Shown piece after piece: positions 13,474-63,771 of a stretch of 64,000 nt of DNA. The DNA is from a phage: assembly GCA_019326865.1 (NCBI GenBank), contig GCA_019326865.1_4101.1. One strand, written 5' to 3'. Each line of letters opens with the position of its first letter. The stretch's first letter is position 1. The notes below the pieces were generated by a model. It worked only from the letters and a program-made list of their open reading frames with translations, did no database searches and was not told where the DNA came from. The translations under genes and the position numbers were made by a program.

Positions 13474-13474
13474 T

Positions 13475-13837: not shown

Positions 13838-13838
13838 T

Positions 13839-14210
13839 ATGAGTTACCGTGAGATATTTTCCATTATTTCAATTATTATGTTCAGTGCTGGGACATTGGT
13901 GTGGGTATTATATTTTTTCTGTGTATCACCAGTGTATAATATGTTATGTAATATTAAATCAAGTTCTGGATATATGACTTTTATGATCTTTATGGGATAT
14001 TATTGTCTAAGCATTTTAGGTGTTGTTTTGGTTGTTATATTTGATGTAGGGCCAAATAAGGATGGTCTGAAAATGTATGAGTTAATAACTATGTTTGGGT
14101 GTATGATACCAACTGCACTAATGTTTGTAGCTATTGGTGCTGGATGTATAAAGTTATACAATTATTTAAAATCCATTCATCATTCCATTCATAATAAACG
14201 TATGTCATAA
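13839..14210 (+). CDS. small multi-TM membrane protein, family A
   Basis: Paralog. Confidence 0.6.
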   Translation: MSYREIFSIISIIMFSAGTLVWVLYFFCVSPVYNMLCNIKSSSGYMTFMIFMGYYCLSILGVVLVVIFDVGPNKDGLKMYELITMFGCMIPTALMFVAIGAGCIKLYNYLKSIHHSIHNKRMS

Positions 14211-16089: not shown

Positions 16090-16138
16090 AATTTCTCTCC
16101 TTCATTCATTATACTGTATTTAACCCAATTAAGAAAAG

Positions 16139-16155
16139 CCAGTATCAAGTACTGG
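16139..16155 (-). terminator. hairpin ccagtatcaagtactgg
   Basis: Perfect inverted repeat after stop of 16163..17512; recurs at 17561 and 19997. Confidence 0.55.
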
Positions 16156-16162
16156 TATTTTA

Positions 16163-17512: not shown

Positions 17513-17560
17513 ATTTCCCTCCTTTATTCATTATACTATATTTAATACTAAAAGAAAAAG

Positions 17561-17577
17561 CCAGTATCAAGTACTGG
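17561..17577 (-). terminator. hairpin ccagtatcaagtactgg
   Basis: Same hairpin, after stop of 17585..18694. Confidence 0.55.
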
Positions 17578-17584
17578 CATTATG

Positions 17585-18694: not shown

Positions 18695-18768
18695 AACTAA
18701 AATCTCCATATAATAATTATAATGTATTTACAAAAAAATACCAGTACGTATTTCAGTACTGGTATCAT

Positions 18769-19950: not shown

Positions 19951-19996
19951 ATTTTCCTCCTTTATTCATTATACTATATTTAATACAAAAAGAAAT

Positions 19997-20015
19997 GCCA
20001 GTATCAAGTACTGGC
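19997..20015 (-). terminator. hairpin gccagtatcaagtactggc
   Basis: Same hairpin, after stop of 20024..21172. Confidence 0.55.
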
Positions 20016-20023
20016 ATATTAAT

Positions 20024-51060: not shown

Positions 51061-51290
51061 TACTGACAGAACTAGAAATGTATCATAGATTTAATAAGTA
51101 CTATCATTTACTTAAGCCTATACAGAGGATTAAATGTCCATTTGAAGAGAAACAGGTATTAATTTATGAGCATAAGTTATTTGTATCATTAGGTACGAAT
51201 GAACAAGAGTATTATTTGAAGTTGTACTTAATTACTTTAATTGAATTGATTAATCACAAAACACAGAAAGCTAAGAAATCTAAAAAATGA
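51054..51290 (+). CDS. GTNYQ-family small protein
   Basis: Family motif (LGTNEQEYY). Confidence 0.6.
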   Translation: MLVLTELEMYHRFNKYYHLLKPIQRIKCPFEEKQVLIYEHKLFVSLGTNEQEYYLKLYLITLIELINHKTQKAKKSKK

Positions 51291-51625
51291 AAACTAATAT
51301 TCAACTCAAGGTATACATATCTTATGAATCTATATACATCAAATGCAGTCTATGTAAAGATGTAATGGATTATAAAGGTAAGCCATTCACAATTACTTAC
51401 AGTCTAACAGGAGGCTTTTATATATCTTTTGTTGATTACGAAAATAAAATATACAAGCACATTGATATTAAAGATTTAAGTACCTTGTCAGATGAGGAAT
51501 ACTTTCAAGAATCATTAGTATGGGATTTAGAGTTTCCTATGACATTAGTACACAAAATGATAGTACTAATGAAAGAAACTAAACCTGAGCCGAGTGGTTA
51601 TGAAGAATTCATTATTGAGTATTAA
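51287..51625 (+). CDS. FQxSLV-family protein (EEYFQESLVWD) embedded in GTNYQ array
   Basis: Motif seen in translation. Confidence 0.6.
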   Translation: MKTNIQLKVYISYESIYIKCSLCKDVMDYKGKPFTITYSLTGGFYISFVDYENKIYKHIDIKDLSTLSDEEYFQESLVWDLEFPMTLVHKMIVLMKETKPEPSGYEEFIIEY

Positions 51626-51637
51626 GAGTACTGATAT

Positions 51638-51853
51638 ATGAAAAGATTATCATACAAAGATTACAGTAAACTTATCAGTACTTTACAACCAGAAATTAGA
51701 AGAATTAATTATCTTCCTATATCTAACGAAGAACGTGTAGTACTGAAAAATGAGTTAATATTAAAACGCACAGTAGGTACTAACTATCAAGATAATAGTG
51801 TTTGCGATTTAATTAGAGGGTTAATGATCACAATAAAGGCCAAGTGCTATTGA
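51638..51853 (+). CDS. GTNYQ-family small protein
   Basis: Family motif. Confidence 0.65.
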   Translation: MKRLSYKDYSKLISTLQPEIRRINYLPISNEERVVLKNELILKRTVGTNYQDNSVCDLIRGLMITIKAKCY

Positions 51854-51917
51854 CAGTACTTGACGGAGCTTTTCATTACTGATATAGTATACTAACGTTA
51901 ATCATAGGGTAGAAATT

Positions 51918-52163
51918 ATGTTAAAATTTTTAAATTTCCTTATCGTCTTGTGTATTGTTCTTGGGATTGCACCGTTTGTACTGGTGTATATGGATTCAGA
52001 TGAAATGCAAAAGATGAATTGCACAAAGACGGGACAGAGTAGAGAAGAGACGATTCTTATGCCTGTTACTGTTATTGTTAATAATATGCCCATTACAAAC
52101 ATGGTCCCTACCCTAACGACAACGTACCAGTACTCTTGTACAGACGGGGAGAGGTGGAGATGA
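51918..52163 (+). CDS. small protein with N-terminal hydrophobic segment
   Basis: ORF after TTGACA-like promoter. Confidence 0.45.
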   Translation: MLKFLNFLIVLCIVLGIAPFVLVYMDSDEMQKMNCTKTGQSREETILMPVTVIVNNMPITNMVPTLTTTYQYSCTDGERWR

Positions 52164-52480
52164 AATTTAATATAGCAAAAACATCGAATGTATGTATATT
52201 TGGTTATGCAGAAGAGTTAGGTGATATTGACATTCTTTTGTACAAAAAGGATGGTGTTATGCATTTCAAGTACCAGGATGAAGAGGCAGACAATTATCTT
52301 TTGCCTAATTTAGTACAAATGCAGGAAGAGGAATTATTCCAGTACAGCTTAGTATATGACATTGATATTTGCACGATGCCAGTACTAATTAATATTCAAA
52401 AAGTGATGCTCGATGTGTTTGATAGGCTAATACAAGGCACACAAGGAAGAACCATATATGTCAATGTACAAGACAATTAA
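52160..52480 (+). CDS. FQxSLV-family protein (EELFQYSLVYD)
   Basis: Start at MKFNIAK with SD ggag. Confidence 0.6.
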   Translation: MKFNIAKTSNVCIFGYAEELGDIDILLYKKDGVMHFKYQDEEADNYLLPNLVQMQEEELFQYSLVYDIDICTMPVLINIQKVMLDVFDRLIQGTQGRTIYVNVQDN

Positions 52481-52673
52481 TCAAGAATGGAAGAATCAAA
52501 AGTACAGAGAATTCAATAGGAATTTTACAAAAGACGAATTGAATATAAAAACAACAGAATTTGATATGTTTATTTTTCTCGGAACACGTTCTCAGGAGCA
52601 ATTTGTTCATTATTATATAAATTCGTTGCGAGCGGAGATAGTATGCAAAACAAAGGGTATTATAAAAAGGTAA
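52458..52673 (+). CDS. GTNYQ-family small protein (LGTRSQEQFV)
   Basis: Family motif, diverged. Confidence 0.55.
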   Translation: MSMYKTINQEWKNQKYREFNRNFTKDELNIKTTEFDMFIFLGTRSQEQFVHYYINSLRAEIVCKTKGIIKR

Positions 52674-52909
52674 ACCAACATTTGTACGCTACAAAGTACA
52701 GGGATTTTTGTTTAAAGGGTGGTGATGAAGATTTTTCTTTGCGATTATCAGAATTTAATCTGTTATTTTATCTTGGTACATCGGAACAAGAAGAAATGGC
52801 ACAGAAATTTCTCAATCACCTTGTACAAAAAATTAATATGCAAATTTTGATGCTTAAGTTACAGGATGAGATAAATGAATATGAACCCAACAATAGTACA
52901 GGATCTTAA
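52643..52909 (+). CDS. GTNYQ-family small protein (LGTSEQEEM)
   Basis: Family motif, diverged. Confidence 0.55.
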   Translation: MQNKGYYKKVNQHLYATKYRDFCLKGGDEDFSLRLSEFNLLFYLGTSEQEEMAQKFLNHLVQKINMQILMLKLQDEINEYEPNNSTGS

Positions 52910-53270
52910 ACAAGTAATATTCCTTTTGAATACAAGAAGTGAATTGTATACAGAGTTTAAAGAGATTAATGCATTTTATCAGAATTTTGTAATTCAAGAG
53001 TTCAGTGATTTAATTACAGATGCATTATTTGAATTATCGGAAAAATACAAAGGAACAGAGTTCAGTGTTAAAAATGTATTACGTTCTTTATCAACGCGTA
53101 TAATAAAATTAGATCATTTCAAATTTGAAAATAAAGATTTATTCAGTCACAATCCAAGTACAGCTTTATATTTTATTCCTGATTCAGACAAAAATCATCC
53201 TATTCATTACGGATGGATTTTGTCGTACATAGTACAAGGAAAGGAGTATCCTATTAAATGGAACGATTAG
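52875..53270 (+). CDS. hypothetical protein
   Basis: ORF in array, no family motif recognised. Confidence 0.5.
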   Translation: MNMNPTIVQDLKQVIFLLNTRSELYTEFKEINAFYQNFVIQEFSDLITDALFELSEKYKGTEFSVKNVLRSLSTRIIKLDHFKFENKDLFSHNPSTALYFIPDSDKNHPIHYGWILSYIVQGKEYPIKWND

Positions 53271-53418
53271 GGCGATTAGATTATTACACAATTAATACAA
53301 ATTATTTGTTGCGTAATATAAAATCCGATTACAAAATATGGATAAAGAACAGAGATAGCATGTGTTATGAATTTTATTTAGATTATGCTATCAAACGATT
53401 TTTAAGAGAAGAACATTA

Positions 53419-53622
53419 GTGCAAAATAGTAATACGATAACATTAAATGCATTACAGGATTCATTATTAGATAGTATTAAGATGTATTACAATATACATT
53501 TGAGGGGTGGCATTGATGATTATAATTATTATTTGAGTTTAATTGTAATTGAGCACCTTTCAGTACAGGACAGGATTTTACATCCTACAAATCCTAGGTA
53601 TCCATCGATAGGTAAATTATGA
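53419..53622 (+). CDS. hypothetical protein (GTG start)
   Basis: ORF from track. Confidence 0.35.
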   Translation: MQNSNTITLNALQDSLLDSIKMYYNIHLRGGIDDYNYYLSLIVIEHLSVQDRILHPTNPRYPSIGKL

Positions 53623-54176
53623 ATGAGATAGAGTTATTAGCACACAAGATAAGTACAATAATGCTTATCCTCAATAACAACCATCCTATATCGCAGATAG
53701 ATGGAATCCTGAGTCAGAGGACAGGTGGTAGTTTATATTTGTCCCTAAACGCAAATATCGCAAGGAAATACATTGACATTGGTGATGTTGATGCTGAAAT
53801 CGAATGTGATACAACTGGAATTGTTGATGTAGGTGCATTAATCAGTTCAAATCCTGTATCAGTATCCCCGTTGACCAAAGGTGTTAGTACAGGATTCGAA
53901 GGATATTTGTGGTATAATGCTAATGATAATTATTTTATATATCAGCATTCTAATACAAATTATGATGAAGATAAATTTGAGTTCATTGACCCTTATGATG
54001 AAGCTGGAGTATTTCAACAATCATTAATCACAAAACCACATCAAATGATGTATCTAATGTTATTCAGTACAATGAATTTGAATCCATTAATTAATGGTTT
54101 AAAGTTTTATATTCAATTGAATTTGGTTCATGTAGTTTATGATTTATTAATGCAAGGATATAGTTATGAAGTATAA
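53619..54176 (+). CDS. FQxSLV-family protein (AGVFQQSLITKP)
   Basis: Family motif. Confidence 0.6.
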   Translation: MNEIELLAHKISTIMLILNNNHPISQIDGILSQRTGGSLYLSLNANIARKYIDIGDVDAEIECDTTGIVDVGALISSNPVSVSPLTKGVSTGFEGYLWYNANDNYFIYQHSNTNYDEDKFEFIDPYDEAGVFQQSLITKPHQMMYLMLFSTMNLNPLINGLKFYIQLNLVHVVYDLLMQGYSYEV

Positions 54177-54468
54177 AATGATGTATACTCCAGATATGAT
54201 TTATGTTGAATTAGAAGACGATGACGACGGCTGGAATTTGATTTATTCAATTAGTTCAGGTTGGTACATGGCACATTTAAATGATAACAAAGTTACAGAT
54301 TATTTTGTAGATTTCAACACCTTATCCGATGAAGAATTGTTTCAACAACAATTAGTGATTGATACAGGTGGTTATGATGTGTTATTATTAAAAAAGATAC
54401 AGAAAGCTGTTATTGATTTTAAGCCCAATATGTTGCAAAGGAAATATTATGACATCGAAGTACAATAA
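54166..54468 (+). CDS. FQxSLV-family protein (EELFQQQLVID)
   Basis: Family motif. Confidence 0.6.
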   Translation: MKYKMMYTPDMIYVELEDDDDGWNLIYSISSGWYMAHLNDNKVTDYFVDFNTLSDEELFQQQLVIDTGGYDVLLLKKIQKAVIDFKPNMLQRKYYDIEVQ

Positions 54469-54802
54469 TGTATTTGATATTAAGAAATTAAAAGAATGGG
54501 TTTATAGTATTGAAATTGAAGCAATTCCTTATCATAGATACAAACAATATGATTTATGTAATATAGATATTCGTGAGTTGTACGCATATTATCAGAGTGC
54601 ATTAGAGATGCATAAGATATTTTTGAGTTCAAATTACATGACACGTTGTAATGATGCTTTTAAAGAATTTAATAATTATAATTTAGTACAAAAATATGTA
54701 GTATCAAAGTACATGTACAATCAAGGAATTAAAGGTTGTATTGAATTCAATTCGGTCTTTGCTTTAGTTGAGATAATTTTATGCAGTACATGTCTGATTT
54801 AG
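54449..54802 (+). CDS. hypothetical protein
   Basis: Start at MTSKYNNVF. Confidence 0.45.
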   Translation: MTSKYNNVFDIKKLKEWVYSIEIEAIPYHRYKQYDLCNIDIRELYAYYQSALEMHKIFLSSNYMTRCNDAFKEFNNYNLVQKYVVSKYMYNQGIKGCIEFNSVFALVEIILCSTCLI

Positions 54803-55278
54803 AGTTTAGTTTAGATGCTGCTTTTAAATTTGTACACAAGATAGAAACAATATATCGTACATTATGTGCAATACGATTAGTAACATCTGAACTTGATGTT
54901 GGTAAAAGGTATCAGGTATGGAATAACACATTTCTAGACAAAGAGCGTTGTTCAACTGGGTTTAATATTTTATCATTTAATCCAAGTAATTGTTACCCAG
55001 AGAAGCATGAGCGTTATCCGAATGATGACATGTGGTTTGAGTACAAAGAAGATGGTGATATGTCGTTCATTGAAGTTCCTGATGATTTTAATGCACAAGA
55101 TTTAACAGAAGAATGGTGGTTCCAGCAGAATTTAGTCCACGATGATATTGATTTATTTTTTTATGTAGTATTTAAAATGCTTTATCACAACAAGATAGTA
55201 CAAGATAGTGTATTTTTTTCATGTCTATATATTGATGATTTGTACAATGAAATTCAAATCAACATGCCTGTATCGTAA
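54781..55278 (+). CDS. FQxSLV-family protein (EEWWFQQNLVHD)
   Basis: Family motif. Confidence 0.6.
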   Translation: MQYMSDLEFSLDAAFKFVHKIETIYRTLCAIRLVTSELDVGKRYQVWNNTFLDKERCSTGFNILSFNPSNCYPEKHERYPNDDMWFEYKEDGDMSFIEVPDDFNAQDLTEEWWFQQNLVHDDIDLFFYVVFKMLYHNKIVQDSVFFSCLYIDDLYNEIQINMPVS

Positions 55279-55358
55279 GATATGGGCTTTTTTTGTTTTG
55301 GTATTGACATAGAAGTACAAAACTGTTATCATGGGTAATCATTTTAAAGGAGGAATTT

Positions 55359-55880
55359 ATGGCGAGTTTTATGGTTCCAAGTACATACGAAGATGCATCA
55401 AGTGCAGTGCATAAGGTTCATCATATTTTTAATTTAATTATTAATGCATCAAAAAATAAAATGTATGCACCTCTAGTGAAATTTAATAAAAATGAGGAAA
55501 TTTTTGTTAGTACAGAACAAACGATTTTTCCATATTTCAATAAAGATAGATTATGGTTCATGCATTCAGTTGCATTACAAAGATATAATATAACAAGATC
55601 CAACGAAAATCATAATCCAGGATATTTGCATATATCGTTATACCATCCCGATATTGGAGAGGATGTATATTTTCAGTACAGCACAGTACACTGCCATGAA
55701 GATATCTTTGCTGCTATGCTTATTGCTAAACTGAACACCGTTGATTTGGAGTACCACAAATACAATAATAAATCATTTAAGATCATAATCCCTGCATTCA
55801 TAGCTCTTTATGATTATGTGGTGCATAACAAAAAAGATGATACATATGCTTTCAATGAAGAGTATTTGGATTTTTTTTAA
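55359..55880 (+). CDS. FQxSLV-family protein (EDVYFQYSTVH)
   Basis: SD aaaggagg; family motif. Confidence 0.65.
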   Translation: MASFMVPSTYEDASSAVHKVHHIFNLIINASKNKMYAPLVKFNKNEEIFVSTEQTIFPYFNKDRLWFMHSVALQRYNITRSNENHNPGYLHISLYHPDIGEDVYFQYSTVHCHEDIFAAMLIAKLNTVDLEYHKYNNKSFKIIIPAFIALYDYVVHNKKDDTYAFNEEYLDFF

Positions 55881-55889
55881 GGAGAACAT

Positions 55890-56435
55890 ATGAGCAGTAC
55901 AACAGTACAGAAAGCAATGACATTCAATGAAATTGGTGCATTTAAAGATAAGATTATTGATAGTATTGAATATTTGATTTGTTGTAACATCAATAAGATA
56001 GATGTATATAACAAGGTAAATGGTTCATGTCACACAATGTACATGACAAACAACAATGGAACTATTCCATTTATTTCGGATAGTACAATATGGTACGCAT
56101 GTGATACAACAAAATACACAGCAGGTTCGTATGTGTTAGGGACACATAAGGAATTAATTATTCCTGAGCATTGTATACAAGAAGAAGAATATTTTCAAAT
56201 GCAGTTAGTACACGCACCATTAGAGATGGTTGCTTTATATATGATACCTTATATCTCTAAATGTGTTCATGAGAATAAAGCTCCATGGAATCATGAATTT
56301 GGTTCGTTGAAGTTATTGTATAATGTTTTAGCACAATATTATGATTACAGACACGAGGGTACAATCAGCGATGTATGGGATTTTGAATCACTAAGGGTGA
56401 AAACATACACAGGTGAATTATATGTCCAGAATTAA
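55890..56435 (+). CDS. FQxSLV-family protein (EEEYFQMQLVH)
   Basis: SD aaggag; family motif. Confidence 0.65.
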   Translation: MSSTTVQKAMTFNEIGAFKDKIIDSIEYLICCNINKIDVYNKVNGSCHTMYMTNNNGTIPFISDSTIWYACDTTKYTAGSYVLGTHKELIIPEHCIQEEEYFQMQLVHAPLEMVALYMIPYISKCVHENKAPWNHEFGSLKLLYNVLAQYYDYRHEGTISDVWDFESLRVKTYTGELYVQN

Positions 56436-57036
56436 AATGTGTGATTTGATGCAGTACAGTAAAATTGCAATTCCAGTACTTAATAAAGTTCTTGATGCAT
56501 TCATTGCAAAATACCCTGAGAATTCAGAATTACGTATTCCGTTTCGTGTACCAGACATAGATGATACATTCTATGTAAATGTCAGTACACGTGGTATTAC
56601 ATTGCAGCAGAAATACAGGGATACAGAATACTATGGAATAAAGTTGGATTCGGGGCAGGGTTCTAAATCATCCTATGATTTTTTTGTTCCTAATAATATA
56701 GAGTCATGGGAAACAAACATTTCAAAGAAAGATGAAAATGATGTTCCTATTAGTGGTGAATTAAGCAATAAAGTTTTTTATTATTACGAAACTGATAAAT
56801 TCCCTGAAGAGTTATATTACAATTCAGAAATGAGTGAAGATGTAGATGCATTCATGTTTCAATTATCTTTAGTACAGGATATAATTAATGTTCAAGAGTT
56901 AAGAGCAGAAATCAATTTAGCTAAAGAGTTGTCGGACATGTTGCCACCGTTTAGTATGATTTTTTGTGAAGGAGGTTATTTTACAAAAGAAGTGTTTGAA
57001 CATTTCGTAGATGTTGTAAAAGGGTTGGATATATAG
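56413..57036 (+). CDS. FQxSLV-family protein (DAFMFQLSLVQD)
   Basis: Family motif. Confidence 0.6.
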   Translation: MNYMSRIKMCDLMQYSKIAIPVLNKVLDAFIAKYPENSELRIPFRVPDIDDTFYVNVSTRGITLQQKYRDTEYYGIKLDSGQGSKSSYDFFVPNNIESWETNISKKDENDVPISGELSNKVFYYYETDKFPEELYYNSEMSEDVDAFMFQLSLVQDIINVQELRAEINLAKELSDMLPPFSMIFCEGGYFTKEVFEHFVDVVKGLDI

Positions 57037-57037
57037 T

Positions 57038-57268
57038 ATGCTTACTGATGATATTAAACAAAAATACCGTAAGTTTGATTGGTTCACCGACAGTTTCCAG
57101 CTTGAATTACTGCATTTGAATATAAGTGAGACATTATGTGCAGAAACACAAGATGAATTTGATGACAGAGTTCTTAACATAGTAATGCTTTCTTGCTTTA
57201 AACACTTTGGTTATTTTTCGAACAGGATTAAGGTACAAAATGCATCAACACAAGCATCATTCATATGA
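57038..57268 (+). CDS. hypothetical small protein
   Basis: ORF. Confidence 0.4.
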   Translation: MLTDDIKQKYRKFDWFTDSFQLELLHLNISETLCAETQDEFDDRVLNIVMLSCFKHFGYFSNRIKVQNASTQASFI

Positions 57269-57755
57269 TTTTGCAATTAACATTATGAAGTTCATTCGAG
57301 CGTTGGAGGATGGGAAGCTTAGTCATAAGTACAGGAAAGAGGGTAACAATTGGTTCAGAAATGATTCCGAGTTCAGGAGTCATAACATCGTGTATAGCAA
57401 TCAGTACAGTGCTAATTACCTACAAGATGTAGTGATGTGTTTTGAATATGTATTGCAGTTCAGGGGTACAATCCAGAATGAATTAATGGATCACATGTAC
57501 ATCCGATACCTTCCAATGCATAAAGATGAAAATGCATTATTAGGTTCAATATACCAACGAGTAAGGGAAATTGAGTGCAGGGATATATTAGATACAGAAG
57601 AATCGTATTTCCAGCAATCTCTTATTACTGCACCTGATTCATTACAGGCACATAATTTGTTTAATACATTACGTCAGAACATCAGTACAGACATATTTTT
57701 GTCATTATTGGATTATGATACATTTGTCAAAGATTTAGAGGAAATAGGTTTATGA
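57240..57755 (+). CDS. FQxSLV-family protein (EESYFQQSLITAP)
   Basis: Start at MHQHKHH with SD aagg; family motif. Confidence 0.55.
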   Translation: MHQHKHHSYDFAINIMKFIRALEDGKLSHKYRKEGNNWFRNDSEFRSHNIVYSNQYSANYLQDVVMCFEYVLQFRGTIQNELMDHMYIRYLPMHKDENALLGSIYQRVREIECRDILDTEESYFQQSLITAPDSLQAHNLFNTLRQNISTDIFLSLLDYDTFVKDLEEIGL

Positions 57756-58108
57756 GTATATTTTCGGTTTATATAGTAAACGTCCACAACGATGGTAGTT
57801 TAATTGAATTTGATCTAGTTGATAACGATGATAATGCATATGGTATTAAAGTGCAGGGAGATGAAGTGCAGTTCACTACAAGAACAAATTTTGAAAATCC
57901 AGTCCAAGTTCCTAATTTCATAGAAGATGAAGCTGCACGATTCCAATACGAAACGATATACGAGAATGTACATATGCATACTGTTATGCAACAAAGTTTA
58001 GTTCAATTAGTTCCTTTGTTTAAACAAAATATATATGTACATGAATTGTCGATTAATGACGTTCGCAGTTCCGTTTTGTTCGGTTCCAGTGATACCGATG
58101 ATATGTAA
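57752..58108 (+). CDS. FQxSLV-family protein (ARFQYETIY..MQQSLVQL)
   Basis: Family motif, diverged. Confidence 0.55.
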   Translation: MSIFSVYIVNVHNDGSLIEFDLVDNDDNAYGIKVQGDEVQFTTRTNFENPVQVPNFIEDEAARFQYETIYENVHMHTVMQQSLVQLVPLFKQNIYVHELSINDVRSSVLFGSSDTDDM

Positions 58109-58117
58109 GGAAGTGTT

Positions 58118-58666
58118 ATGAGTTTATTAGATACATTAGAAAAAGACCGAAGTGCAATTAAACGATTAAAAAAGCAAATTCAAAAGATTGTATACAACGT
58201 TGATAAGTTTGAGGTTCCTGGGAGAGTAGGTGATATTTCCCATACTGAGATCAAATCCCTTAAGTCAGATTTGTTGTTAAAAAATAAAAATGAGTTGATT
58301 TTAGTTTTGAGTTCAGATATGATGGGGGTAAGATATGGTTTTAATTCAGTATCAGTGCATCCTAAGAGTGAAGGGATATATCTATCACAGGGTTTCAATA
58401 GCAACGAGCAGAAGTGTTTTTACGATGCTGTACATGAACCTTTGAAGTTTACGAGAAGTGAAGCTCAAGCGTTATTAGAGCTATCAGACGAGAGTTTGTT
58501 TCAGTACAGTACAATGTACGACAATGACAAGCTTCGTTGTATGTACGCAGTGAAGCATTATGCACATGAGTTCTCTGGATTTGAATACCTTTTAGTTAGA
58601 ACCAATACAATGTATCTTGATATGTTAGAAGAATACATCGATAAAGTTGTTAATGAGTATCACTAA
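58118..58666 (+). CDS. FQxSLV-family protein (DESLFQYSTMYD)
   Basis: Family motif. Confidence 0.6.
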   Translation: MSLLDTLEKDRSAIKRLKKQIQKIVYNVDKFEVPGRVGDISHTEIKSLKSDLLLKNKNELILVLSSDMMGVRYGFNSVSVHPKSEGIYLSQGFNSNEQKCFYDAVHEPLKFTRSEAQALLELSDESLFQYSTMYDNDKLRCMYAVKHYAHEFSGFEYLLVRTNTMYLDMLEEYIDKVVNEYH

Positions 58667-58827
58667 TGAAAGAGTTATTTGAAGATCAGTTCAATACCTA
58701 TGTGGATAATATTCTTTATTCCAATCGTGCCAGTCAACGAGGAAATCGTGCTTACAATATTGATTACCTATTAGTGGTACTGAGTTCACAGTACACACAC
58801 GCTGTACAGAGGATGTATTATGAATAG
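58666..58827 (+). CDS. hypothetical small protein (53 aa)
   Basis: Gap-filling ORF coupled on both sides. Confidence 0.35.
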   Translation: MKELFEDQFNTYVDNILYSNRASQRGNRAYNIDYLLVVLSSQYTHAVQRMYYE

Positions 58828-59023
58828 TTATCACGATATTGCAAAGGAGAAGTTGGAGTGTAGTTTAGATTACGGTTTAAATAATTTTCTTACATGCACA
58901 ATGTACAGGGATGAAGATTATGAACAATCCGTAATTTCGTTGCATAGATATTTCGAAATAATTTACGCAAGATATCTTAGAAGGTTAGACGGGATAGGGG
59001 ATTGGAATTATGATTACGTTTGA
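58820..59023 (+). CDS. hypothetical small protein
   Basis: ORF. Confidence 0.45.
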   Translation: MNSYHDIAKEKLECSLDYGLNNFLTCTMYRDEDYEQSVISLHRYFEIIYARYLRRLDGIGDWNYDYV

Positions 59024-59264
59024 AGAACCTGAAACAATGAGTCCATATACGATGAAAGGTTTTGAATTCATGATGGATTCGATTTTGAAGAGTTCGTGTT
59101 TAGTACACAATCCTGGATGTGCTACAGTGAGGGAATATCAGGACAATGCATTGCATCGTGTAATGAATATGTACAGGAATACGAGCCGTAAGCTTTGTGC
59201 GATTAAAAGGATTAAAGAAATCAAGGCTTCTAAGATGAATAAAATCAATCCGTGTGATTTTTGA
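59010..59264 (+). CDS. hypothetical small protein
   Basis: ORF. Confidence 0.45.
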   Translation: MITFEEPETMSPYTMKGFEFMMDSILKSSCLVHNPGCATVREYQDNALHRVMNMYRNTSRKLCAIKRIKEIKASKMNKINPCDF

Positions 59265-59300
59265 AATCTTCGTATTCATATATCATAAGGTTTAATAAAA

Positions 59301-60029
59301 ATGAAATATAAAGAATTTTGTATAAAAACATGGATGTACACTGGTGAATTGCTTACGTGCTGTAATTTGTACAAGCGTGATGTAAACTTCACAAAGGACA
59401 AAGTTATCAAGTATGAAAATTCTCAATTTTATTTGATGGATTTTAGTACTGGGTTTCATGGTAAATCAACCGAGATGCTGGATTATACATTAATGGATGA
59501 GGCGGCACTATTTCAAGAATCATTAGTATTTGATAAGAAGTACATCTGTACATTAGAAGAGATGATTGAAATTCAGAATAAAATTAAATGTGTTCACAGG
59601 GAATGTATTGATAAATGGTGTAAAACTGGTGAAACTGATTTTAGTAATCATTTTAATTTAGGAGAAAGAGTGATGGAATTTGATTTTTTAATATCAGTGC
59701 ATACATTCAAGAATACACATCAGTACTTTTGTAATTTAAACAAAGGTGATTTAATGCACAGTGCGAATGAGTATATTCATTTTATGGATGGTAAATTCAC
59801 ATTCATTGATTACAGTTCATTACAATATCCACATCAAGATATGCCGGACTATACAATAATGAATGAGGCTGAACTATTTCAAGCTTCATTAGTATTTGAC
59901 AAGAAGTACATCTGTACATTTGAAGAAGTAATTACTATACAAAATGAAATGAAGGAGTATGCATCTTTGAATAAACCCAATGAAGGTATTAATCAAGAAT
60001 ACAAATTCAATATAGAGATTCCAAAATGA
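59301..60029 (+). CDS. FQxSLV-family protein with internal duplication (two ALFQESLVFDKKYICT units)
   Basis: Two ~30-aa near-identical segments in one ORF. Confidence 0.65.
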   Translation: MKYKEFCIKTWMYTGELLTCCNLYKRDVNFTKDKVIKYENSQFYLMDFSTGFHGKSTEMLDYTLMDEAALFQESLVFDKKYICTLEEMIEIQNKIKCVHRECIDKWCKTGETDFSNHFNLGERVMEFDFLISVHTFKNTHQYFCNLNKGDLMHSANEYIHFMDGKFTFIDYSSLQYPHQDMPDYTIMNEAELFQASLVFDKKYICTFEEVITIQNEMKEYASLNKPNEGINQEYKFNIEIPK

Positions 60030-60385
60030 CATATGATTATTCTATGTACTATTATAAGTTACCTAAAGGATGGGACTTGTGCTGTAATCTTATTAAGGGA
60101 GACTCGGAACATGAGTTGAATTTATATATGCACTACAAAGATTCTTGTTTTAAATTTATTCATGTATCACATGATGACTATGACTATGAATCTGAGAGTC
60201 TTATAGATTATACAGTACTGGACGATGGCGAACTATTTCAGGAAGCATTAGTGTTTGATAAGAATAAGTACTCCTGTACATTTGAAGAAATGGTTTCTTT
60301 GCAAACTGAAATGAAGAGATTTGAAAAAGAAAACGTATTTAATCCATCCCCATCAAGAACGAATAATTATTATTTCAATATATGA
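60026..60385 (+). CDS. FQxSLV-family protein (GELFQEALVFDKNKYSCTFEE)
   Basis: Close paralog of 59301 gene. Confidence 0.65.
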   Translation: MTYDYSMYYYKLPKGWDLCCNLIKGDSEHELNLYMHYKDSCFKFIHVSHDDYDYESESLIDYTVLDDGELFQEALVFDKNKYSCTFEEMVSLQTEMKRFEKENVFNPSPSRTNNYYFNI

Positions 60386-60394
60386 GATTATAAA

Positions 60395-60877
60395 ATGACA
60401 TTACAGAGTTCATTGGAAAAAGCAAAGAAGATTCATGAGTACATGAATATGGCAAAAGAAGGTTCAGTTTACGGTGTTTTCAAAGACACAAGTACTCAAT
60501 ATTATGTGCCGGATAACCTCCTTTATAATGACTACTCAGATACAGAAACGTGCGTACTGGATACCGACCCTAAAGATTATGAATGTTTCATTGATATGCA
60601 TTATGAGTACATGGTCTATATTAATGATGCAGATATTACCATATACAGTACTGACTGCGATTCTGATGACATTATAATTCCTAGTGAAGTTCTGAATGGC
60701 CCGTGGGATAGTGAAGAGTATTACTTCCAACAAAGTACTGTATACAATGAAGAAGTACTTGATGTTATTATAATTATGTGGTACTTTAAAAATATTGGTT
60801 CTGATAACTTCTATTTCGATTACAGATACGTAAAGAAAGCTATAGATAACGATATTAATAAACCACACGGGGGTTGA
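60395..60877 (+). CDS. FQxSLV-family protein, MSLQSALEKAKK subfamily (EEYYFQQSTVYNEEVLD)
   Basis: Subfamily with conserved N- and C-terminal blocks. Confidence 0.65.
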   Translation: MTLQSSLEKAKKIHEYMNMAKEGSVYGVFKDTSTQYYVPDNLLYNDYSDTETCVLDTDPKDYECFIDMHYEYMVYINDADITIYSTDCDSDDIIIPSEVLNGPWDSEEYYFQQSTVYNEEVLDVIIIMWYFKNIGSDNFYFDYRYVKKAIDNDINKPHGG

Positions 60878-60878
60878 A

Positions 60879-61349
60879 ATGAGTTTAGAAAGAGCATTAG
60901 AGATTGCGAAGTTAATTGATTTATGCAGCAAAGAAATTGTATCAAATTGTCTCAATGGATATCTATTCAAGGAAGGTAAATCATATTGTCGAATGAGATA
61001 CGATGACAGTAGTGAGTATATTCACATGTATGAAGAAGACCTTGATGATTCCGAAATAACACTGAATGGGTGTGATGTTAATCTGGAAGATAATTACATT
61101 TACTTCAGTCGTGGTGCTGATATTTTAATACAAGAAACATCAATTCAACATGTGAATCCAGATGTATATCTTCCATATTCAGTACTGGATAATGACTGGG
61201 GAAGTGAAGAGGTTTACTTTCAGCATAATACTATCTACGATGAAGATGTGCTTGACAAGCTTGTCATTCTGTGGTACTTTAAGAACACTGATACTCCCAA
61301 CTTCTATATGGATTTGGATCTACTACGAGTTATAAAAGAGGATATATGA
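60879..61349 (+). CDS. FQxSLV-family protein, same subfamily
   Basis: EEVYFQHNTIYDEDVLD..WYFKN. Confidence 0.65.
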   Translation: MSLERALEIAKLIDLCSKEIVSNCLNGYLFKEGKSYCRMRYDDSSEYIHMYEEDLDDSEITLNGCDVNLEDNYIYFSRGADILIQETSIQHVNPDVYLPYSVLDNDWGSEEVYFQHNTIYDEDVLDKLVILWYFKNTDTPNFYMDLDLLRVIKEDI

Positions 61350-61789
61350 GTTTAGCAAGTGCACTTAAACTGGCACACAAAATACATCACTTCCACGATA
61401 ACATAAAAAGTGGGTTCAATGGTGATAAAGTAAGTGCATTGGGTAATGAGTATTATCTATCAGGTATAAAGACATACTCTGATGATATTTTACTTATGGG
61501 ACATGATAAAGACAATACTATACAGTACTCTTCATGTAGTCAATATACTAGTTTTATGGTATATATTCCAGGTACTAAGATTACGTTTGACACATCAAAT
61601 TCACCTGTTGACTTCGGGGTACTTGATGGCCCGTGGGGTACTGAAGAGTATTACTTCCAACAGAGTCTTATTTTCAACCAAGAAATTCTTGATTCCTTGG
61701 TTGTTTTGTGGTACTTTAAGGAATTGAATTTTGAACCATTCTTTCTTGACTGGGGAGCATGTGAGTATTTAAGTACAGGGGATTTGTAA
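61346..61789 (+). CDS. FQxSLV-family protein, same subfamily
   Basis: EEYYFQQSLIFNQEILD..WYFKE. Confidence 0.65.
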   Translation: MSLASALKLAHKIHHFHDNIKSGFNGDKVSALGNEYYLSGIKTYSDDILLMGHDKDNTIQYSSCSQYTSFMVYIPGTKITFDTSNSPVDFGVLDGPWGTEEYYFQQSLIFNQEILDSLVVLWYFKELNFEPFFLDWGACEYLSTGDL

Positions 61790-62277
61790 TGTCGTTACAA
61801 AGTGCATTAAAAGAAGCAAAGAAAATCCATGAGTACATGATTATGGTACAAGAAGGTTCAGTCCCAGGTGTGTATAAAACATCTGATACTGAATTTTTTG
61901 TAAAAGACCGTGACGATTATGATGAGTCAGAGATATGTGCAGAAACGTTAGTACTGCACACTGATACTGGTGATAGTGATAACTGTGAATATCATATGTA
62001 CAATCAATACATTAGTTATTGCCGTAATGAAGATATTACCATCTACAACACAGATATTGATGCTGATGACACTATCATTCCGTATTCAGTACTGGAAGGT
62101 CCGTGGGATAGTGAAGAGTATTACTTTCAGAATAGTACTATCTACAATGAAGAAGAACTGGATGTTATTGTGATTATGTGGTACTTTAAAAGTATTGACT
62201 CCAGTAGTTTCTATTTTGATTATGAATATGTAGAGAATACAGTAGGAGAAGGTAATGTCATTACAAAGTGCTCTTGA
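61789..62277 (+). CDS. FQxSLV-family protein, same subfamily
   Basis: EEYYFQNSTIYNEEELD..WYFKS. Confidence 0.65.
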   Translation: MSLQSALKEAKKIHEYMIMVQEGSVPGVYKTSDTEFFVKDRDDYDESEICAETLVLHTDTGDSDNCEYHMYNQYISYCRNEDITIYNTDIDADDTIIPYSVLEGPWDSEEYYFQNSTIYNEEELDVIVIMWYFKSIDSSSFYFDYEYVENTVGEGNVITKCS

Positions 62278-62701
62278 AAAAGCAAAAGAACTACATGGAT
62301 ACTTTGAAGATATAAAGGCAGGAAAGTTCAAAGAAGTATACAAAGCCGAGAACGGTAACTACTACAAAGATGAAATATATAATAATTCCGTTGGTGTAAG
62401 GGTTATTCTTGGGTTGAATTCCAATAGTCCTGTGTCGTTTTCTGAATACAATAGAGATGCAGAATTCATTAGTTATGTTGAAAATGGTAGCATTCGTTTT
62501 ATTAATAGACAAAAACCATTAATTTTGAATTATGAAGTTCTGGATGGTCAATGGGATAATGAAGAGTATTACTTCCAAAACAGTACTGTATACGACGATG
62601 AAGTACTTGAAGCATTAGTTATTATGTGGTACTTCAAGAGTATTAACTGTCCTCGATTTTATTTGGATTTCGAAGAACTTGGTAAAGATCCAGAGGTATA
62701 G
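62255..62701 (+). CDS. FQxSLV-family protein, same subfamily
   Basis: EEYYFQNSTVYDDEVLE..WYFKS. Confidence 0.65.
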   Translation: MSLQSALEKAKELHGYFEDIKAGKFKEVYKAENGNYYKDEIYNNSVGVRVILGLNSNSPVSFSEYNRDAEFISYVENGSIRFINRQKPLILNYEVLDGQWDNEEYYFQNSTVYDDEVLEALVIMWYFKSINCPRFYLDFEELGKDPEV

Positions 62702-62702
62702 A

Positions 62703-63017
62703 ATGAAAAACTTATTCAGTGTTCAGTACGTTCCAGGTGAAATTAGTTTATTGTATCTCTTTGACCATGATAATTCATTATTACTAGTAGTAAAGAAATG
62801 TCAAGCTAGTTCGTTTGTTGAATACATTCACGATAATGAATATATACCTGATTTTTTAGAGTGCGATTATTACGATGATCATGAATCATTTATTTTTCAG
62901 GAATCGCTAGTATGGGACAAATCGATTAACTTCTTTACGTTAATTGAATTACAAAAGCAAGTGAAGTATCATTGGGATTATTTAATTACACAGGATTACA
63001 TTGAGATAGAAATATAA
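62703..63017 (+). CDS. FQxSLV-family protein (ESFIFQESLVWD)
   Basis: Start at MKNLFSV with SD gagg. Confidence 0.55.
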   Translation: MKNLFSVQYVPGEISLLYLFDHDNSLLLVVKKCQASSFVEYIHDNEYIPDFLECDYYDDHESFIFQESLVWDKSINFFTLIELQKQVKYHWDYLITQDYIEIEI

Positions 63018-63325
63018 TGACTAAAAATGAATTTGATTCACTTTGTACTGTTTATAATTCATTAACAGAAATACCTAACTTTATTAGTTATATTTCAGCT
63101 TTAAATCACATTATGCATAGTTTTGAACAATCGTTTGAGGAGAAATATGCTGGAAGAAAAGTTCTATGTCATATGCCAATGTACTTAGGAGATGGTGAGC
63201 CTTACACTACAAGTACTACATGTGAAATAAAAAAATATAATATATTATTGGGTACTATAGAATTCACAGTATCCAATGGCGGTAGTTATATGTACTTTAG
63301 AGATGGAGTGGTTGAATTATTATGA
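63017..63325 (+). CDS. hypothetical protein
   Basis: ORF. Confidence 0.45.
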   Translation: MTKNEFDSLCTVYNSLTEIPNFISYISALNHIMHSFEQSFEEKYAGRKVLCHMPMYLGDGEPYTTSTTCEIKKYNILLGTIEFTVSNGGSYMYFRDGVVELL

Positions 63326-63771
63326 GTTACGAAAGTGCAATCAAGAAAGCAAATGATATTCTACGCGTCGTTCAATTCTTCAAAGAAAATCCTGAATACG
63401 TAGATGATAAAAACCAAGAGCACGATGAGAGATTGAGACGAAAAATTATCTCTTTATTTGACACTAATAAAGATAATTGGAGTCTAATTGAGTTAGCATA
63501 CGATTATATTTCATTGAACCGAAATGATGATGTAGTTAAGATAGAAAGGCATGAATCAGAAGAATCTTTTAAAATTTCAGATATTTTATCCCTGAGTACT
63601 GAAGAAGGGTACTTCCAGGGTAGCACTCTTTATAATGAAGAAACACTTGACAATCTATGCACATTCAGTGTAATATATCAGAAATCTGTACTAGATATAT
63701 TTTATCTTGACACTGCTGAACTGCATACCCTAACCAATTTTGTTACTACCGAAGAGGCTACATTCGAGTGA
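63322..63771 (+). CDS. FQxSLV-family protein (EEGYFQGSTLYNEETLD)
   Basis: Family motif. Confidence 0.6.
   Translation: MSYESAIKKANDILRVVQFFKENPEYVDDKNQEHDERLRRKIISLFDTNKDNWSLIELAYDYISLNRNDDVVKIERHESEESFKISDILSLSTEEGYFQGSTLYNEETLDNLCTFSVIYQKSVLDIFYLDTAELHTLTNFVTTEEATFE

What the first reader, a model, noticed from the sequence alone, without database searches (positions are those of the whole stretch)
51287..63771. Second expanded family (FQxSLV motif, ~20 copies) contiguous with and interleaved into the GTNYQ array
About 20 ORFs of 100-240 aa share a near-C-terminal acidic-aromatic-FQ-(Q/E/N)-S-(L/T)-(V/I)-(Y/F/W)-(D/N) block, often followed by VLDxhVIMWYFK. Two members sit inside the GTNYQ array, and both families share a core of aromatic-Q-(E/Q)-x-aromatic-(V/I)-x-(D/E), so they may be one superfamily with short and long forms. 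A five-member subfamily (60395-62701) and an intragenic duplication (59301-60029) indicate ongoing duplication. Together the two families occupy ~18 kb of the window.
Basis: seen in the sequence. Interest (0 to 1): 0.82.

Follow-up and report, generated by a model that had tools for sequence, protein, structure and literature searches.

The report
Acidic FQ-motif gene family array
A giant E. coli phage carries a long tandem run of about 40 related genes (20 of them in this window) for small acidic proteins built around an invariant Phe-Gln motif. The family is real, old, shared with related giant phages of Klebsiella and Erwinia, and matches no solved structure, but it is not related to the neighbouring GTNYQ family and its function is still unknown.

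Summary
On the + strand, 20 ORFs (21 domain units) between 51287 and 63771 form one family with an invariant F-Q dyad. Each is recognised by a leave-one-out profile (E 4e-26 to 6e-4), and the motif occurs 22 times against 0.14 expected.

The window comes from an Asteriusvirus jumbo phage (96% identical to UE-S1). The array is cut by the window end. UE-S1 has 18 more members downstream, about 38 in all over roughly 27 kb.

The family is also found at the same genomic position in Klebsiella phage RaK2 (27 members) and an Erwinia Eneladusvirus (about 8).

- **GTNYQ link:** profile-profile probability is 0.1-0.3%, against 90-97.5% for positive controls. The predicted folds also differ (all-alpha versus alpha/beta).
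- **Ongoing duplication:** not supported. 19 of 20 genes have one-to-one orthologues in phAPEC6, with dN/dS 0.03-0.70.
- **Intragenic duplication:** ORF 59301-60029 is a fusion of two neighbouring paralogues.

The proteins are acidic (median pI 4.5), absent from the published phAPEC6 virion proteome, and match no Pfam family or solved structure. They sit behind conserved sigma70-type promoters just inside the left terminal repeat.

My best inference, not shown, is that they are early, host-directed binding proteins.

The parts
51287..51625 (+). FQ family member, short form, 112 aa (DEEYFQESLVW). Lies among GTNYQ genes.
   Evidence: Leave-one-out HMM E 1.6e-12.
52136..52480 (+). FQ family member, short form, 114 aa from the TTG start. 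The real start is probably GTG 52154 or ATG 52160 (EEELFQYSLVY). Lies among GTNYQ genes.
   Evidence: Leave-one-out E 1.5e-11. Matches phrog_13866 at 8e-42.
53619..54176 (+). FQ family member, long form, 185 aa (DEAGVFQQSLIT).
   Evidence: Leave-one-out E 6.7e-9. Matches phrog_19795.
54166..54468 (+). FQ family member, short form, 100 aa (DEELFQQQLVI).
   Evidence: Leave-one-out E 2.9e-5. BLASTP to 51287 at 1e-5.
54781..55278 (+). FQ family member, long form, 165 aa (TEEWWFQQNLVH). Last gene before the internal terminator.
   Evidence: Leave-one-out E 1.1e-11.
55266..55287 (+). Intrinsic terminator-like hairpin followed by a T-run, inside the array.
   Evidence: Annotated as a terminator in UE-S1. 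Conserved in phAPEC6.
55304..55332 (+). Sigma70-type promoter TTGACA-17-TATCAT with a TG extension, followed by AGGAGG and the ATG at 55359.
   Evidence: Both hexamers are unchanged in phAPEC6 while the spacer carries substitutions.
51860..51888 (+). Sigma70-type promoter TTGACG-17-TATAGT with a TG extension, in the 64-nt gap before 51918/52136.
   Evidence: The -10 element is conserved in phAPEC6, where the -35 is TTGACA.
55359..55880 (+). FQ family member, long form, 173 aa (GEDVYFQYSTVH).
   Evidence: Leave-one-out E 3.2e-7.
55890..56435 (+). FQ family member, long form, 181 aa (QEEEYFQMQLVH).
   Evidence: Leave-one-out E 2e-7.
56413..57036 (+). FQ family member, long form, 207 aa from the GTG start (VDAFMFQLSLVQ). 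Weakest member.
   Evidence: Leave-one-out E 6.2e-4. E 0.045 with a profile built from window members only.
57207..57755 (+). FQ family member, long form, 182 aa from the TTG start; the real start is probably ATG 57240 (TEESYFQQSLIT).
   Evidence: Leave-one-out E 4e-8. phrog_28680 matches residues 12-182.
57752..58108 (+). FQ family member, 118 aa (DEAARFQYETIY). Weak member.
   Evidence: Leave-one-out E 3.5e-4.
58118..58666 (+). FQ family member, long form, 182 aa (SDESLFQYSTMY).
   Evidence: Leave-one-out E 3.5e-9.
59301..60029 (+). Fusion of two adjacent short-form paralogues, 242 aa. Units are about 59301-59669 (EAALFQESLVF) and 59670-60029 (EAELFQASLVF).
   Evidence: Each half is 39-40% identical to 60026-60385. 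The halves are separate genes in other phages. The same fusion occurs in UE-S1.
60026..60385 (+). FQ family member, short form, 119 aa (DDGELFQEALVF).
   Evidence: leave-one-out E 3.1e-6.
60395..60877 (+). FQ family member, five-member subfamily, 160 aa (SEEYYFQQSTVY...VLDVIIIMWYFK). This is the protein that was modelled.
   Evidence: leave-one-out E 3.3e-25.
60879..61349 (+). FQ family member, five-member subfamily, 156 aa.
   Evidence: leave-one-out E 5.8e-15.
61346..61789 (+). FQ family member, five-member subfamily, 147 aa.
   Evidence: leave-one-out E 4.4e-18.
61789..62277 (+). FQ family member, five-member subfamily, 162 aa, net charge -26.
   Evidence: leave-one-out E 4e-26.
62255..62701 (+). 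FQ family member, five-member subfamily, 148 aa.
   Evidence: leave-one-out E 5.6e-19.
62679..63017 (+). FQ family member, short form, 112 aa from the TTG start; the real start is probably ATG 62703 (HESFIFQESLVW).
   Evidence: leave-one-out E 7.7e-6.
63322..63771 (+). FQ family member, 149 aa (TEEGYFQGSTLY). Distant sixth relative of the five-member subfamily, and the last complete member before the window ends.
   Evidence: leave-one-out E 3.6e-14.
51638..52909 (+). Context only, not FQ family. Three GTNYQ-family genes (51638-51853, 52458-52673, 52643-52909) are interleaved with the first two FQ genes. An 81-aa ORF with a hydrophobic N-terminus lies at 51918-52163.

Best explanation
**Shown.** The region is the first part of a tandem array of paralogous, protein-coding genes. 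There are about 38 members over about 27 kb in the nearest complete genome, and 20 of them are in the window.

The proteins are 100-240 aa, cytoplasmic-looking and strongly acidic, and share one alpha/beta domain. The conserved core is the C-terminal part: acidic residues, an aromatic residue, the invariant F-Q, then S-(L/T)-(V/I)-aromatic-(D/N), an amphipathic helix, and an FYxD strand. The N-terminal helix and beta region vary in length and sequence.

The family is old and specific to RaK2-like jumbo phages (Asteriusvirus, Alcyoneusvirus, Eneladusvirus). It always lies upstream of the dam methylase and cytidylyltransferase genes. Each copy is kept under purifying selection. It is unrelated to the adjacent GTNYQ three-helix family.

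**Inferred.** The genes are transcribed early by host RNA polymerase, as long operons from sigma70-type promoters with extended -10 elements. They start just inside the left terminal repeat, and many genes are translationally coupled.

The products stay in the infected cell and act as a panel of binding proteins. The conserved FQ core supplies the scaffold, and the divergent acidic surfaces give each paralogue its own host target, either in host takeover or in neutralising defence or nucleic-acid-binding proteins.

The confidence given (0.45) is for the whole statement. The 'shown' part alone is about 0.9 and the inferred mechanism about 0.4.
For: **Family and extent**
- establish the family in the window.
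- 18 further members lie in UE-S1 downstream of the window end.

**Cross-genus conservation and synteny**
- The Asteriusvirus profile hits 27 RaK2 ORFs at E<1e-3. They carry TEEGYFQ(G/Y/A)S(T/L) in the array ORF412-440, upstream of dam/cytidylyltransferase.
- hhalign gives 97.5% probability, E 9e-12.
- A RaK2 member hits Asteriusvirus genomes directly by tblastn (31% identity, E 2e-4 against 2.3 Gb).
- In an Erwinia Eneladusvirus, 4 ORFs reach E<1e-3 and about 4 more carry the motif, at the same position.
- Foldseek against BFVD finds only uncharacterised proteins of 121Q, SP27, RaK2, GAP32, Serratia BF and Yersinia fHe-Yen9-03.

**Real genes**
- dN/dS is 0.03-0.70 against phAPEC6, with orthologues for 19 of 20.

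**Fold**
- The AlphaFold model has pLDDT 88 and pTM 0.81. The motif region has pLDDT 95-97.

**Not structural**
- None of gp430c-gp476c is among the 62 virion proteins of phAPEC6 (PMC7247149).
- RaK2 ORF412-440 are not annotated as structural.

**Acidity**
- Median pI is 4.5 and median net charge -11 (range -4 to -26). The background median pI is 7.1.

**Early transcription**
- A terminator followed by TTGACA-17-TGtTATCAT lies at 55266-55332, and TTGACG-17-TGaTATAGT at 51860. In phAPEC6 the hexamers are conserved while the spacer or flank changes.
- Similar promoters occur in gaps of the RaK2 array.
- 47 of 59 gene junctions overlap or abut.
- These phages use host RNA polymerase plus a phage sigma factor (PMC11895373).
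- In fEgEco12, whose termini were verified, the arrays start about 2.4 kb inside the 21-kb left terminal repeat.
Against: - No experiment or transcriptome was found for these genes, so timing and targets are inferred.
- Promoter-like sites as a whole are not enriched in the region (107 found versus 112 expected). Only the few that lie in intergenic gaps and are conserved carry weight.
- Anti-defence genes are usually variable accessory genes. This array is rather stable within the genus and old, which fits a core phage function as well as a host-directed one.
- No PADLOC, Pfam or NCBIfam family matches.
- Absence from one virion proteome does not exclude low-abundance packaging.
- The fold comes from a 21-sequence alignment of paralogues and was not compared with the AlphaFold database, because that library was unavailable.
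Confidence: 0.45

Rival explanations
1. One reading: the FQ and GTNYQ families are short and long forms of one superfamily descended from a common ancestor.
For: - Both have an aromatic-Q-(E/Q)-x-x-V string.
- The two families are adjacent and interleaved in Asteriusvirus, and also in RaK2, where a GTNYQ-like ORF (L006 16777-16998) lies between two FQ genes.
Against: - hhalign probability is 0.09-0.3% in seven profile pairings, against 90-97.5% for the positive controls.
- No GTNYQ ORF scores better than E 0.8 with the FQ profile.
- The predicted folds differ.
- The charges differ: median pI 4.5 versus 7.9.
- The Eneladusvirus locus has FQ genes but no GTNYQ genes.
Confidence: 0.03
2. The array is a young, actively expanding and contracting 'accordion', driven by a current arms race. 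Copies are recent duplicates with rapid turnover.
For: - Tandem same-strand arrangement.
- A five-member subfamily and a two-unit ORF.
- Copy number differs between genera: about 38, 27 or more, and about 8.
- Neighbouring orthologues differ widely in identity to UE-S1 (73-100%), which suggests recombinational exchange.
Against: - Even the closest paralogues are only 57% identical.
- 19 of 20 genes have positional one-to-one orthologues in phAPEC6, with dN/dS below 1.
- All 36 genomes show 3-6 places for a subfamily query, 5-6 in most.
- The two-unit ORF is a fusion, not a new duplicate.
Confidence: 0.08
3. The proteins serve the phage's own biology rather than acting on host factors. Examples would be non-virion assembly chaperones for its many fibres, or accessory factors for replication or DNA condensation, with paralogues matched to paralogous phage partners.
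For: - The family is old, syntenic and under purifying selection in three genera that infect different hosts.
- It lies next to nucleic-acid metabolism genes.
- These phages have other large paralogous sets, such as the RCC1-like virion proteins.
Against: - Sigma70-type promoters and a position next to the terminal repeat suggest early rather than late expression.
- No member is in the phAPEC6 virion proteome.
- No similarity to known chaperone or replication folds.
Confidence: 0.25
4. The E-E-x-Y-F-Q-(G/S) string is a cleavage site for a 3C- or TEV-like protease, so the family is a set of processed precursors.
For: Some members resemble the TEV site ENLYFQ|G/S (from my own knowledge). Examples are TEEGYFQGS at 63322-63771 and TEEGYFQGS/SEEGYFQGS in RaK2.
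Against: - The residue after Q is G or A in only 2 of 21 units. Otherwise it is Q, E, N, Y, M, L or H.
- The motif lies in a confidently folded helix (pLDDT 95-97) and is followed by about 45 conserved, structured residues.
- No such protease was seen. The RaK2 authors report that virion protein sizes match prediction, but that covers structural proteins only.
Confidence: 0.02

Closest known systems
PHROGs phrog_9317, 12674, 13866, 15629, 19795, 28680, 33775, 34516 and others (all 'unknown function')
   Same: These are the same proteins. Each window member matches one of them strongly (E 1e-42 to 1e-128), and cross-matches link several of them.
   Different: PHROGs splits the family over 19 separate groups with no name or function. 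The unifying FQ motif, the single fold and the cross-genus array are not captured. No Pfam, NCBIfam or PADLOC model exists.
[quoted passage not shown] 2017, PMC5646251), and the remark that about 10% of RaK2 proteins are paralogues (PMC3622015)
   Same: Same genomes and the same phenomenon: genome growth by tandem duplication.
   Different: Each is a single sentence with no coordinates, family definition, motif, structure or function. 'Very similar genes' fits the ~70-aa GTNYQ array better than the much more divergent FQ family.
Multigene families of large eukaryotic DNA viruses (ASFV MGF110/360/505, poxvirus host-range families) and the lineage-specific expansion of about 35 zinc ribbons in phage G (PMC7824862)
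   Same: Dozens of diverged tandem paralogues of small non-structural proteins near a genome end, specific to one lineage (for phage G; the eukaryotic virus families are from my own knowledge).
   Different: No sequence or fold relationship. The host-range and immune-evasion role known for the ASFV and poxvirus families is only an analogy here and is untested.
Acidic DNA-mimic anti-restriction proteins (T7 Ocr, ArdA, T4 Arn)
   Same: Small, early, strongly acidic phage proteins. FQ proteins carry a net charge of -4 to -26. The properties of Ocr, ArdA and Arn are from my own knowledge.
GTNYQ family (phrog_4148), the neighbouring array
   Same: Adjacent, interleaved, on the same strand and probably in the same operons. 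It is co-conserved with FQ in RaK2.
   Different: All-alpha three-helix protein of about 70 aa with near-neutral to basic pI. No profile similarity. Absent from the Eneladusvirus locus examined.

Membership tests
   Leave-one-out HMMs give E 4e-26 to 6.2e-4 for all 20 in a 345-ORF database. The control ORF 14252-14902 fails at E 1.6.
   F and Q are invariant in 21 and in 65 aligned units. The motif occurs 22 times against 0.14 expected.
FQ + GTNYQ common superfamily | Statistically supported profile-profile alignment. | tested here: not met
   hhalign probability is 0.09-0.3%, with positive controls at 90-97.5%.
FQ + GTNYQ common superfamily | Same predicted fold. | tested here: not met
   FQ is a helix, six strands, then helices. 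GTNYQ is three helices only.
Tandem lineage-specific multigene family | Three or more homologous genes, adjacent, on the same strand, restricted to one viral lineage. | tested here: met
   - 20 in the window plus 18 downstream.
- Only 36 Asteriusvirus records match by tblastn.
- Only 71 representatives among 1.84 billion proteins. All ten sampled clusters come from Asteriusvirus phages, E. coli-labelled assemblies with ~350-kb contigs, or unnamed contigs.
Tandem lineage-specific multigene family | Members are functional genes rather than decaying copies. | tested here: met
   dN/dS is 0.03-0.70 for orthologue pairs, with intact ORFs in all the genomes compared.
Pfam T4_MRH (PF24070) | Score at or above the gathering threshold (24.4 bits). 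| tested here: not met
   15 bits, E 0.024, in 1 of 21 units only.
3C/TEV protease substrate site | Small residue (G/S/A) after the Q. | tested here: not met
   G or A in 2 of 21 units, and bulky or charged residues in the rest.
3C/TEV protease substrate site | Site lies in an exposed, unstructured linker. | tested here: not met
   The motif is in helix 107-113 of the model, where pLDDT is 95-97.
3C/TEV protease substrate site | A cognate chymotrypsin-like cysteine protease is encoded by the phage. | not tested
   The whole genome was not screened. Only ClpP-like and prohead proteases are annotated in relatives.
DNA-mimic anti-restriction proteins (Ocr/ArdA type) | Strong net negative charge. 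| tested here: met
   Median charge -11, down to -26.
DNA-mimic anti-restriction proteins (Ocr/ArdA type) | Structural similarity to a known mimic. | tested here: not met
DNA-mimic anti-restriction proteins (Ocr/ArdA type) | Binding and inhibition of restriction or other DNA-binding enzymes. | not testable with these tools
   Needs biochemistry.
Known defence-system components (PADLOC) | Significant match to a PADLOC model. | tested here: not met
   Best E is 0.009, in 1 of 21 units.

The most novel reading that the evidence does not exclude
The roughly 40 FQ proteins, which match no solved structure, are an early-expressed arsenal. Each acidic paralogue would bind and disable a different host defence, nucleic-acid-binding or housekeeping protein. 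That would make the array the bacteriophage counterpart of the host-range multigene families of ASFV and poxviruses. Its conservation across three jumbo-phage genera would mark it as a main determinant of how these phages take over diverse enterobacterial hosts.
Probability: 0.3. Interest if true: 0.8.

Novelty: new variant of a known kind. Interest (0 to 1): 0.5.

Why it matters
In these 350-kb phages about four fifths of the genes have no assigned function, and this one family accounts for about 7-8% of the genome. Recognising some 40 'hypothetical proteins' per genome as one domain family turns scattered ORFans into a single tractable question. The family has an invariant motif, a confident model with no solved counterpart, a fixed genomic position in three genera, and probable early expression.

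If the proteins are host-directed, the array is a ready-made library of natural binders or inhibitors of enterobacterial proteins. It may also influence host range in phages being developed for therapy against E. coli, Klebsiella and Erwinia.

Tried and rejected
- **Curated libraries:** Pfam, NCBIfam and PADLOC scans of all 21 units gave only isolated sub-threshold hits.
- **AlphaFold database:** the fold search library was unavailable.
- **tblastn with the HMM consensus:** no result, probably because of low-complexity masking.
- **tblastn with 57207-57755 at E up to 10:** no RaK2 hit. The cross-genus link needed profiles or a RaK2 query.
- **Large protein database:** the window-only profile found only Asteriusvirus proteins. 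Two wider profile searches (A3, A4) timed out.
- **ORF 14252-14902:** it carries SDLMFQYSLIH but was rejected as a member (E 1.6).
- **TEV/3C cleavage-site idea:** considered and rejected because of the variable residue after Q and the structured context.
- **Literature:** searches on UE-S1, phAPEC6, RaK2, CBB, Sharanji, fEgEco12, 121Q and two jumbo-phage reviews found no description of this family and no transcriptome for these genera.
- **dN/dS for 57207 versus phAPEC6:** the value of 1.00 with dN 2.2 is an alignment artefact and was ignored.

Full report
**Source and setting**

The window is from a 121Q/PBECO4-type jumbo myovirus, genus Asteriusvirus. Region 51287-63771 is 96.3% identical over its full length to Escherichia phage UE-S1 and about 89-90% identical to 121Q, PBECO4, SP27 and others. 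Every gene under the match is annotated 'hypothetical protein'.

Yes. The + strand between 51287 and 63771 carries 29 tightly packed ORFs. Twenty of them contain, near the C-terminus, acidic residues, an aromatic residue, F-Q, then x-S-(L/T)-(V/I)-aromatic-(D/N).
- In a MAFFT alignment of the 21 units (one ORF has two), F and Q are the only invariant internal columns.
- The pattern FQ.[SNQEA][LTV][VILM] occurs 22 times in the region's + strand ORFs and once in all other ORFs of the window. It occurs 0.14 times on average after shuffling.
- Pairwise BLASTP links only the closest sets. jackhmmer from a single seed collects 16-17 members.
- A profile built from Asteriusvirus and RaK2 members without the target recognises each of the 20, with E from 4e-26 to 6.2e-4. 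The weakest are 56413-57036 and 57752-58108.
- A motif-bearing ORF outside the region (14252-14902) fails this test (E 1.6).

The five-member subfamily (60395-62701; 31-57% identity) and its more distant sixth relative 63322-63771 are confirmed. Two FQ genes (51287, 52136) do sit among GTNYQ genes (51054, 51638, 52458, 52643).

**The array is larger and older than the window shows**

In UE-S1 the genes downstream of the window end include 18 more members (EEELFQES, EEMYFQES, EEQYFQLS and so on). That makes about 38 over roughly 27 kb, or about 7.6% of the genome.

Searches from window members find only Asteriusvirus. A tblastn search returns 36 records, all Escherichia or Salmonella. A full scan of 1.84 billion representatives returns 71 proteins, and the ten clusters sampled came from Asteriusvirus phages, from ~350-kb contigs inside E. 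coli assemblies, or from unnamed contigs.

A Foldseek search of the model against viral predicted structures returned uncharacterised proteins of RaK2, GAP32, Serratia BF and Yersinia fHe-Yen9-03. I therefore examined RaK2 and an Eneladusvirus directly.
- **RaK2:** the segment syntenic with UE-S1, upstream of dam methylase, cytidylyltransferase, RnlA, PseT, ligase and ClpP, holds a run of 125-200-aa genes, ORF412-440. The Asteriusvirus profile hits 27 RaK2 ORFs at E<1e-3 (best 3.6e-14), and they carry TEEGYFQ(G/Y/A)S(T/L)(L/I)Y.
- **Profile and BLAST confirmation:** profile-profile comparison gives 97.5% probability, E 9e-12. One RaK2 member hits Asteriusvirus genomes directly by tblastn (31% identity over 82% of its length, E 2e-4).
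- **Erwinia phage pEa_SNUABM_50 (Eneladusvirus):** the same position holds about eight genes with EExxFQx(S/L/M)T. Four reach E<1e-3 and the others are borderline.

The family therefore predates the divergence of at least three genera, with copy numbers of about 38, 27 or more, and about 8.

**Relationship to GTNYQ**

The 29 GTNYQ genes align well with one another but not with FQ.
- hhalign gives 0.09% probability for the two window alignments and 0.1-0.3% for six other pairings that include RaK2 profiles.
- The same procedure gives 97.5% for each family against its RaK2 counterpart and 90.3% for FQ short versus long forms.
- The GTNYQ AlphaFold model (pLDDT 96) is three helices.
- The FQ model (pLDDT 88, pTM 0.81) has an N-terminal helix, six strands, a short helix holding EEYYFQQ, a coil STVYN, a long amphipathic helix EEVLDVIIIMWYFKN, a strand FYFD and a last helix.
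- The shared aromatic-Q-E-x-x-V string is therefore in different structural contexts.
- The families also differ in charge: median pI 4.5 versus 7.9.

They are, however, co-located in RaK2 too. It has at least 10 GTNYQ-like ORFs, one of them between two FQ genes. That points to shared regulation or cooperation rather than common descent. The Eneladusvirus locus has FQ genes without GTNYQ genes.

**Duplication dynamics**

The evidence does not support ongoing duplication.
- 19 of 20 window genes have positional orthologues in phAPEC6, and 20 of 20 in UE-S1. dN/dS is 0.03-0.70, apart from one misaligned pair.
- All 36 genomes show 3-6 places for a subfamily member, 5-6 in most.
- Identity to UE-S1 varies gene by gene from 73% to 100%, which suggests allelic exchange by recombination.
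- ORF 59301-60029 is not an internal duplication. In other phages the two halves are separate genes of about 118 aa (P0018-P0026; phAPEC6 gp444c). In the window and UE-S1 a frame change at the TGATG stop/start overlap reads NLGERVMEFD instead of NLGEE-stop followed by MEFD.

**What the proteins are like**

- No Pfam, NCBIfam, PADLOC or PDB sequence match was found.
- PHROGs splits the family across 19 groups, all of unknown function.
- The proteins are strongly acidic, with net charge -4 to -26, and contain 11-18% aromatic residues.
- I saw no N-terminal hydrophobic segment in their sequences.
- None of the corresponding phAPEC6 products (within gp430c-gp476c) is among the 62 virion proteins found by mass spectrometry (PMC7247149).

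**Expression context**

- 47 of 59 junctions in the two arrays overlap or abut.
- The few gaps hold near-consensus sigma70 promoters with extended -10 elements. One is TTGACG-17-TGaTATAGT at 51860. The other is a hairpin and T-run terminator at 55266-55287 followed by TTGACA-17-TGtTATCAT and AGGAGG before 55359.
- In phAPEC6 the hexamers are unchanged while the spacer differs, and comparable sites sit in gaps of the RaK2 array.
- Promoter-like matches overall are not enriched, so only these conserved intergenic ones count.
- These phages rely on host RNA polymerase plus a phage sigma factor (PMC11895373).
- In fEgEco12, whose ends were verified experimentally (20,993-bp direct terminal repeats; PMC13070987), homologues of 57207 and 61789 lie at 35.0 and 39.8 kb. 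That places the start of the GTNYQ array about 2.4 kb inside the left repeat, with all genes reading inward. I infer this from coordinate offsets.
- From my own knowledge, this layout recalls the pre-early and early regions of phage T5.

**Most likely mechanism**

Shown: an old, lineage-specific, tandem family of non-virion, acidic alpha/beta proteins under purifying selection. The family is built on a conserved FQ core and has variable N-terminal parts.

Inferred, with about 0.4 confidence: the genes are transcribed early by host polymerase, and the proteins act as a panel of binders of host proteins for takeover or anti-defence. The invariant F would be buried and the Q would cap the short helix, so the motif would be structural rather than catalytic.

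The main rival, at about 0.25, is a phage-internal, non-virion role in assembly or DNA handling. The family's age and stability fit that equally well.

A TEV/3C-like cleavage-site reading is unlikely. The residue after Q is small in only 2 of 21 units, and the motif is in a confidently folded helix.

**Novelty**

[quoted passage not shown] In the papers searched I found no definition of this family or its motif, no description of its predicted fold or cross-genus synteny, and no functional data.

The phenomenon of lineage-specific tandem expansion in a giant virus is known. This family is a new and unusually large example with no solved structural counterpart. Interest is moderate because the function is still open.

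Noticed in passing
window 14944-21172 (- strand): Five tandem paralogous genes of 374-449 aa. Relatives annotate them as 'regulator of chromosome condensation' or 'DNA condensation protein'. Proteins carrying that annotation are virion proteins in phAPEC6.
   Followed up: partly
window 11430-14210 (+ strand): A run of about seven or eight small (104-123 aa), very hydrophobic, multi-pass membrane-like ORFs. Only the first two are detectably similar to each other.
   Followed up: partly
window 14252-14902 (+ strand): A 216-aa ORF with SDLMFQYSLIH followed by an amphipathic helix, far from the array. It is not supported as an FQ member (leave-one-out E 1.6) and could be a very distant relative or a chance match.
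   Followed up: yes
window 20001-45000: This stretch is much more mosaic than the FQ array. Only 23% of it is covered by UE-S1, even though the FQ region is 96% identical to UE-S1. Short pieces are shared with unrelated phages such as W70 and Shigella SF1-1. Annotated genes under the matches include a GNAT acetyltransferase and DksA-like proteins. Several short repeated ORF fragments lie at 26-44 kb.
   Followed up: partly
window 51918-52163 (+ strand): An 81-aa ORF with a hydrophobic N-terminus lies directly after the sigma70-like promoter at 51860-51888, between GTNYQ and FQ genes. It overlaps the upstream end of 52136-52480.
   Followed up: no
protein clusters P0037-P0182: Many assemblies labelled Escherichia coli contain 345-358-kb contigs encoding these proteins. 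These are whole Asteriusvirus genomes inside bacterial assemblies, from a carrier state, pseudolysogeny or contamination.
   Followed up: no
L006 27677-28087 and 30102-30578 (RaK2); L007 23657-24085 and 25126-25638 (Erwinia phage); L002 14888-15361 (UE-S1): Two non-FQ genes are conserved inside or at the end of the FQ arrays. One (MI(L/V)(Y/F)H(C/A)STV...GGLH(F/L)GG, 136-142 aa) is shared by RaK2 and the Erwinia phage. The other (a 157-170-aa protein with (I/L)MF(N/S)(V/I)(K/R)DI(I/V)QCLF) is found in all three genera. Both are useful synteny anchors and possibly functionally linked.
   Followed up: no
window 52875-53622, 54413-54802, 57038-57268, 58666-59264, 63017-63325: Nine small ORFs inside the array belong to neither the FQ nor the GTNYQ family. 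Eight have orthologues in phAPEC6 with dN/dS mostly below 0.5, so they are probably real genes of unknown function.
   Followed up: partly
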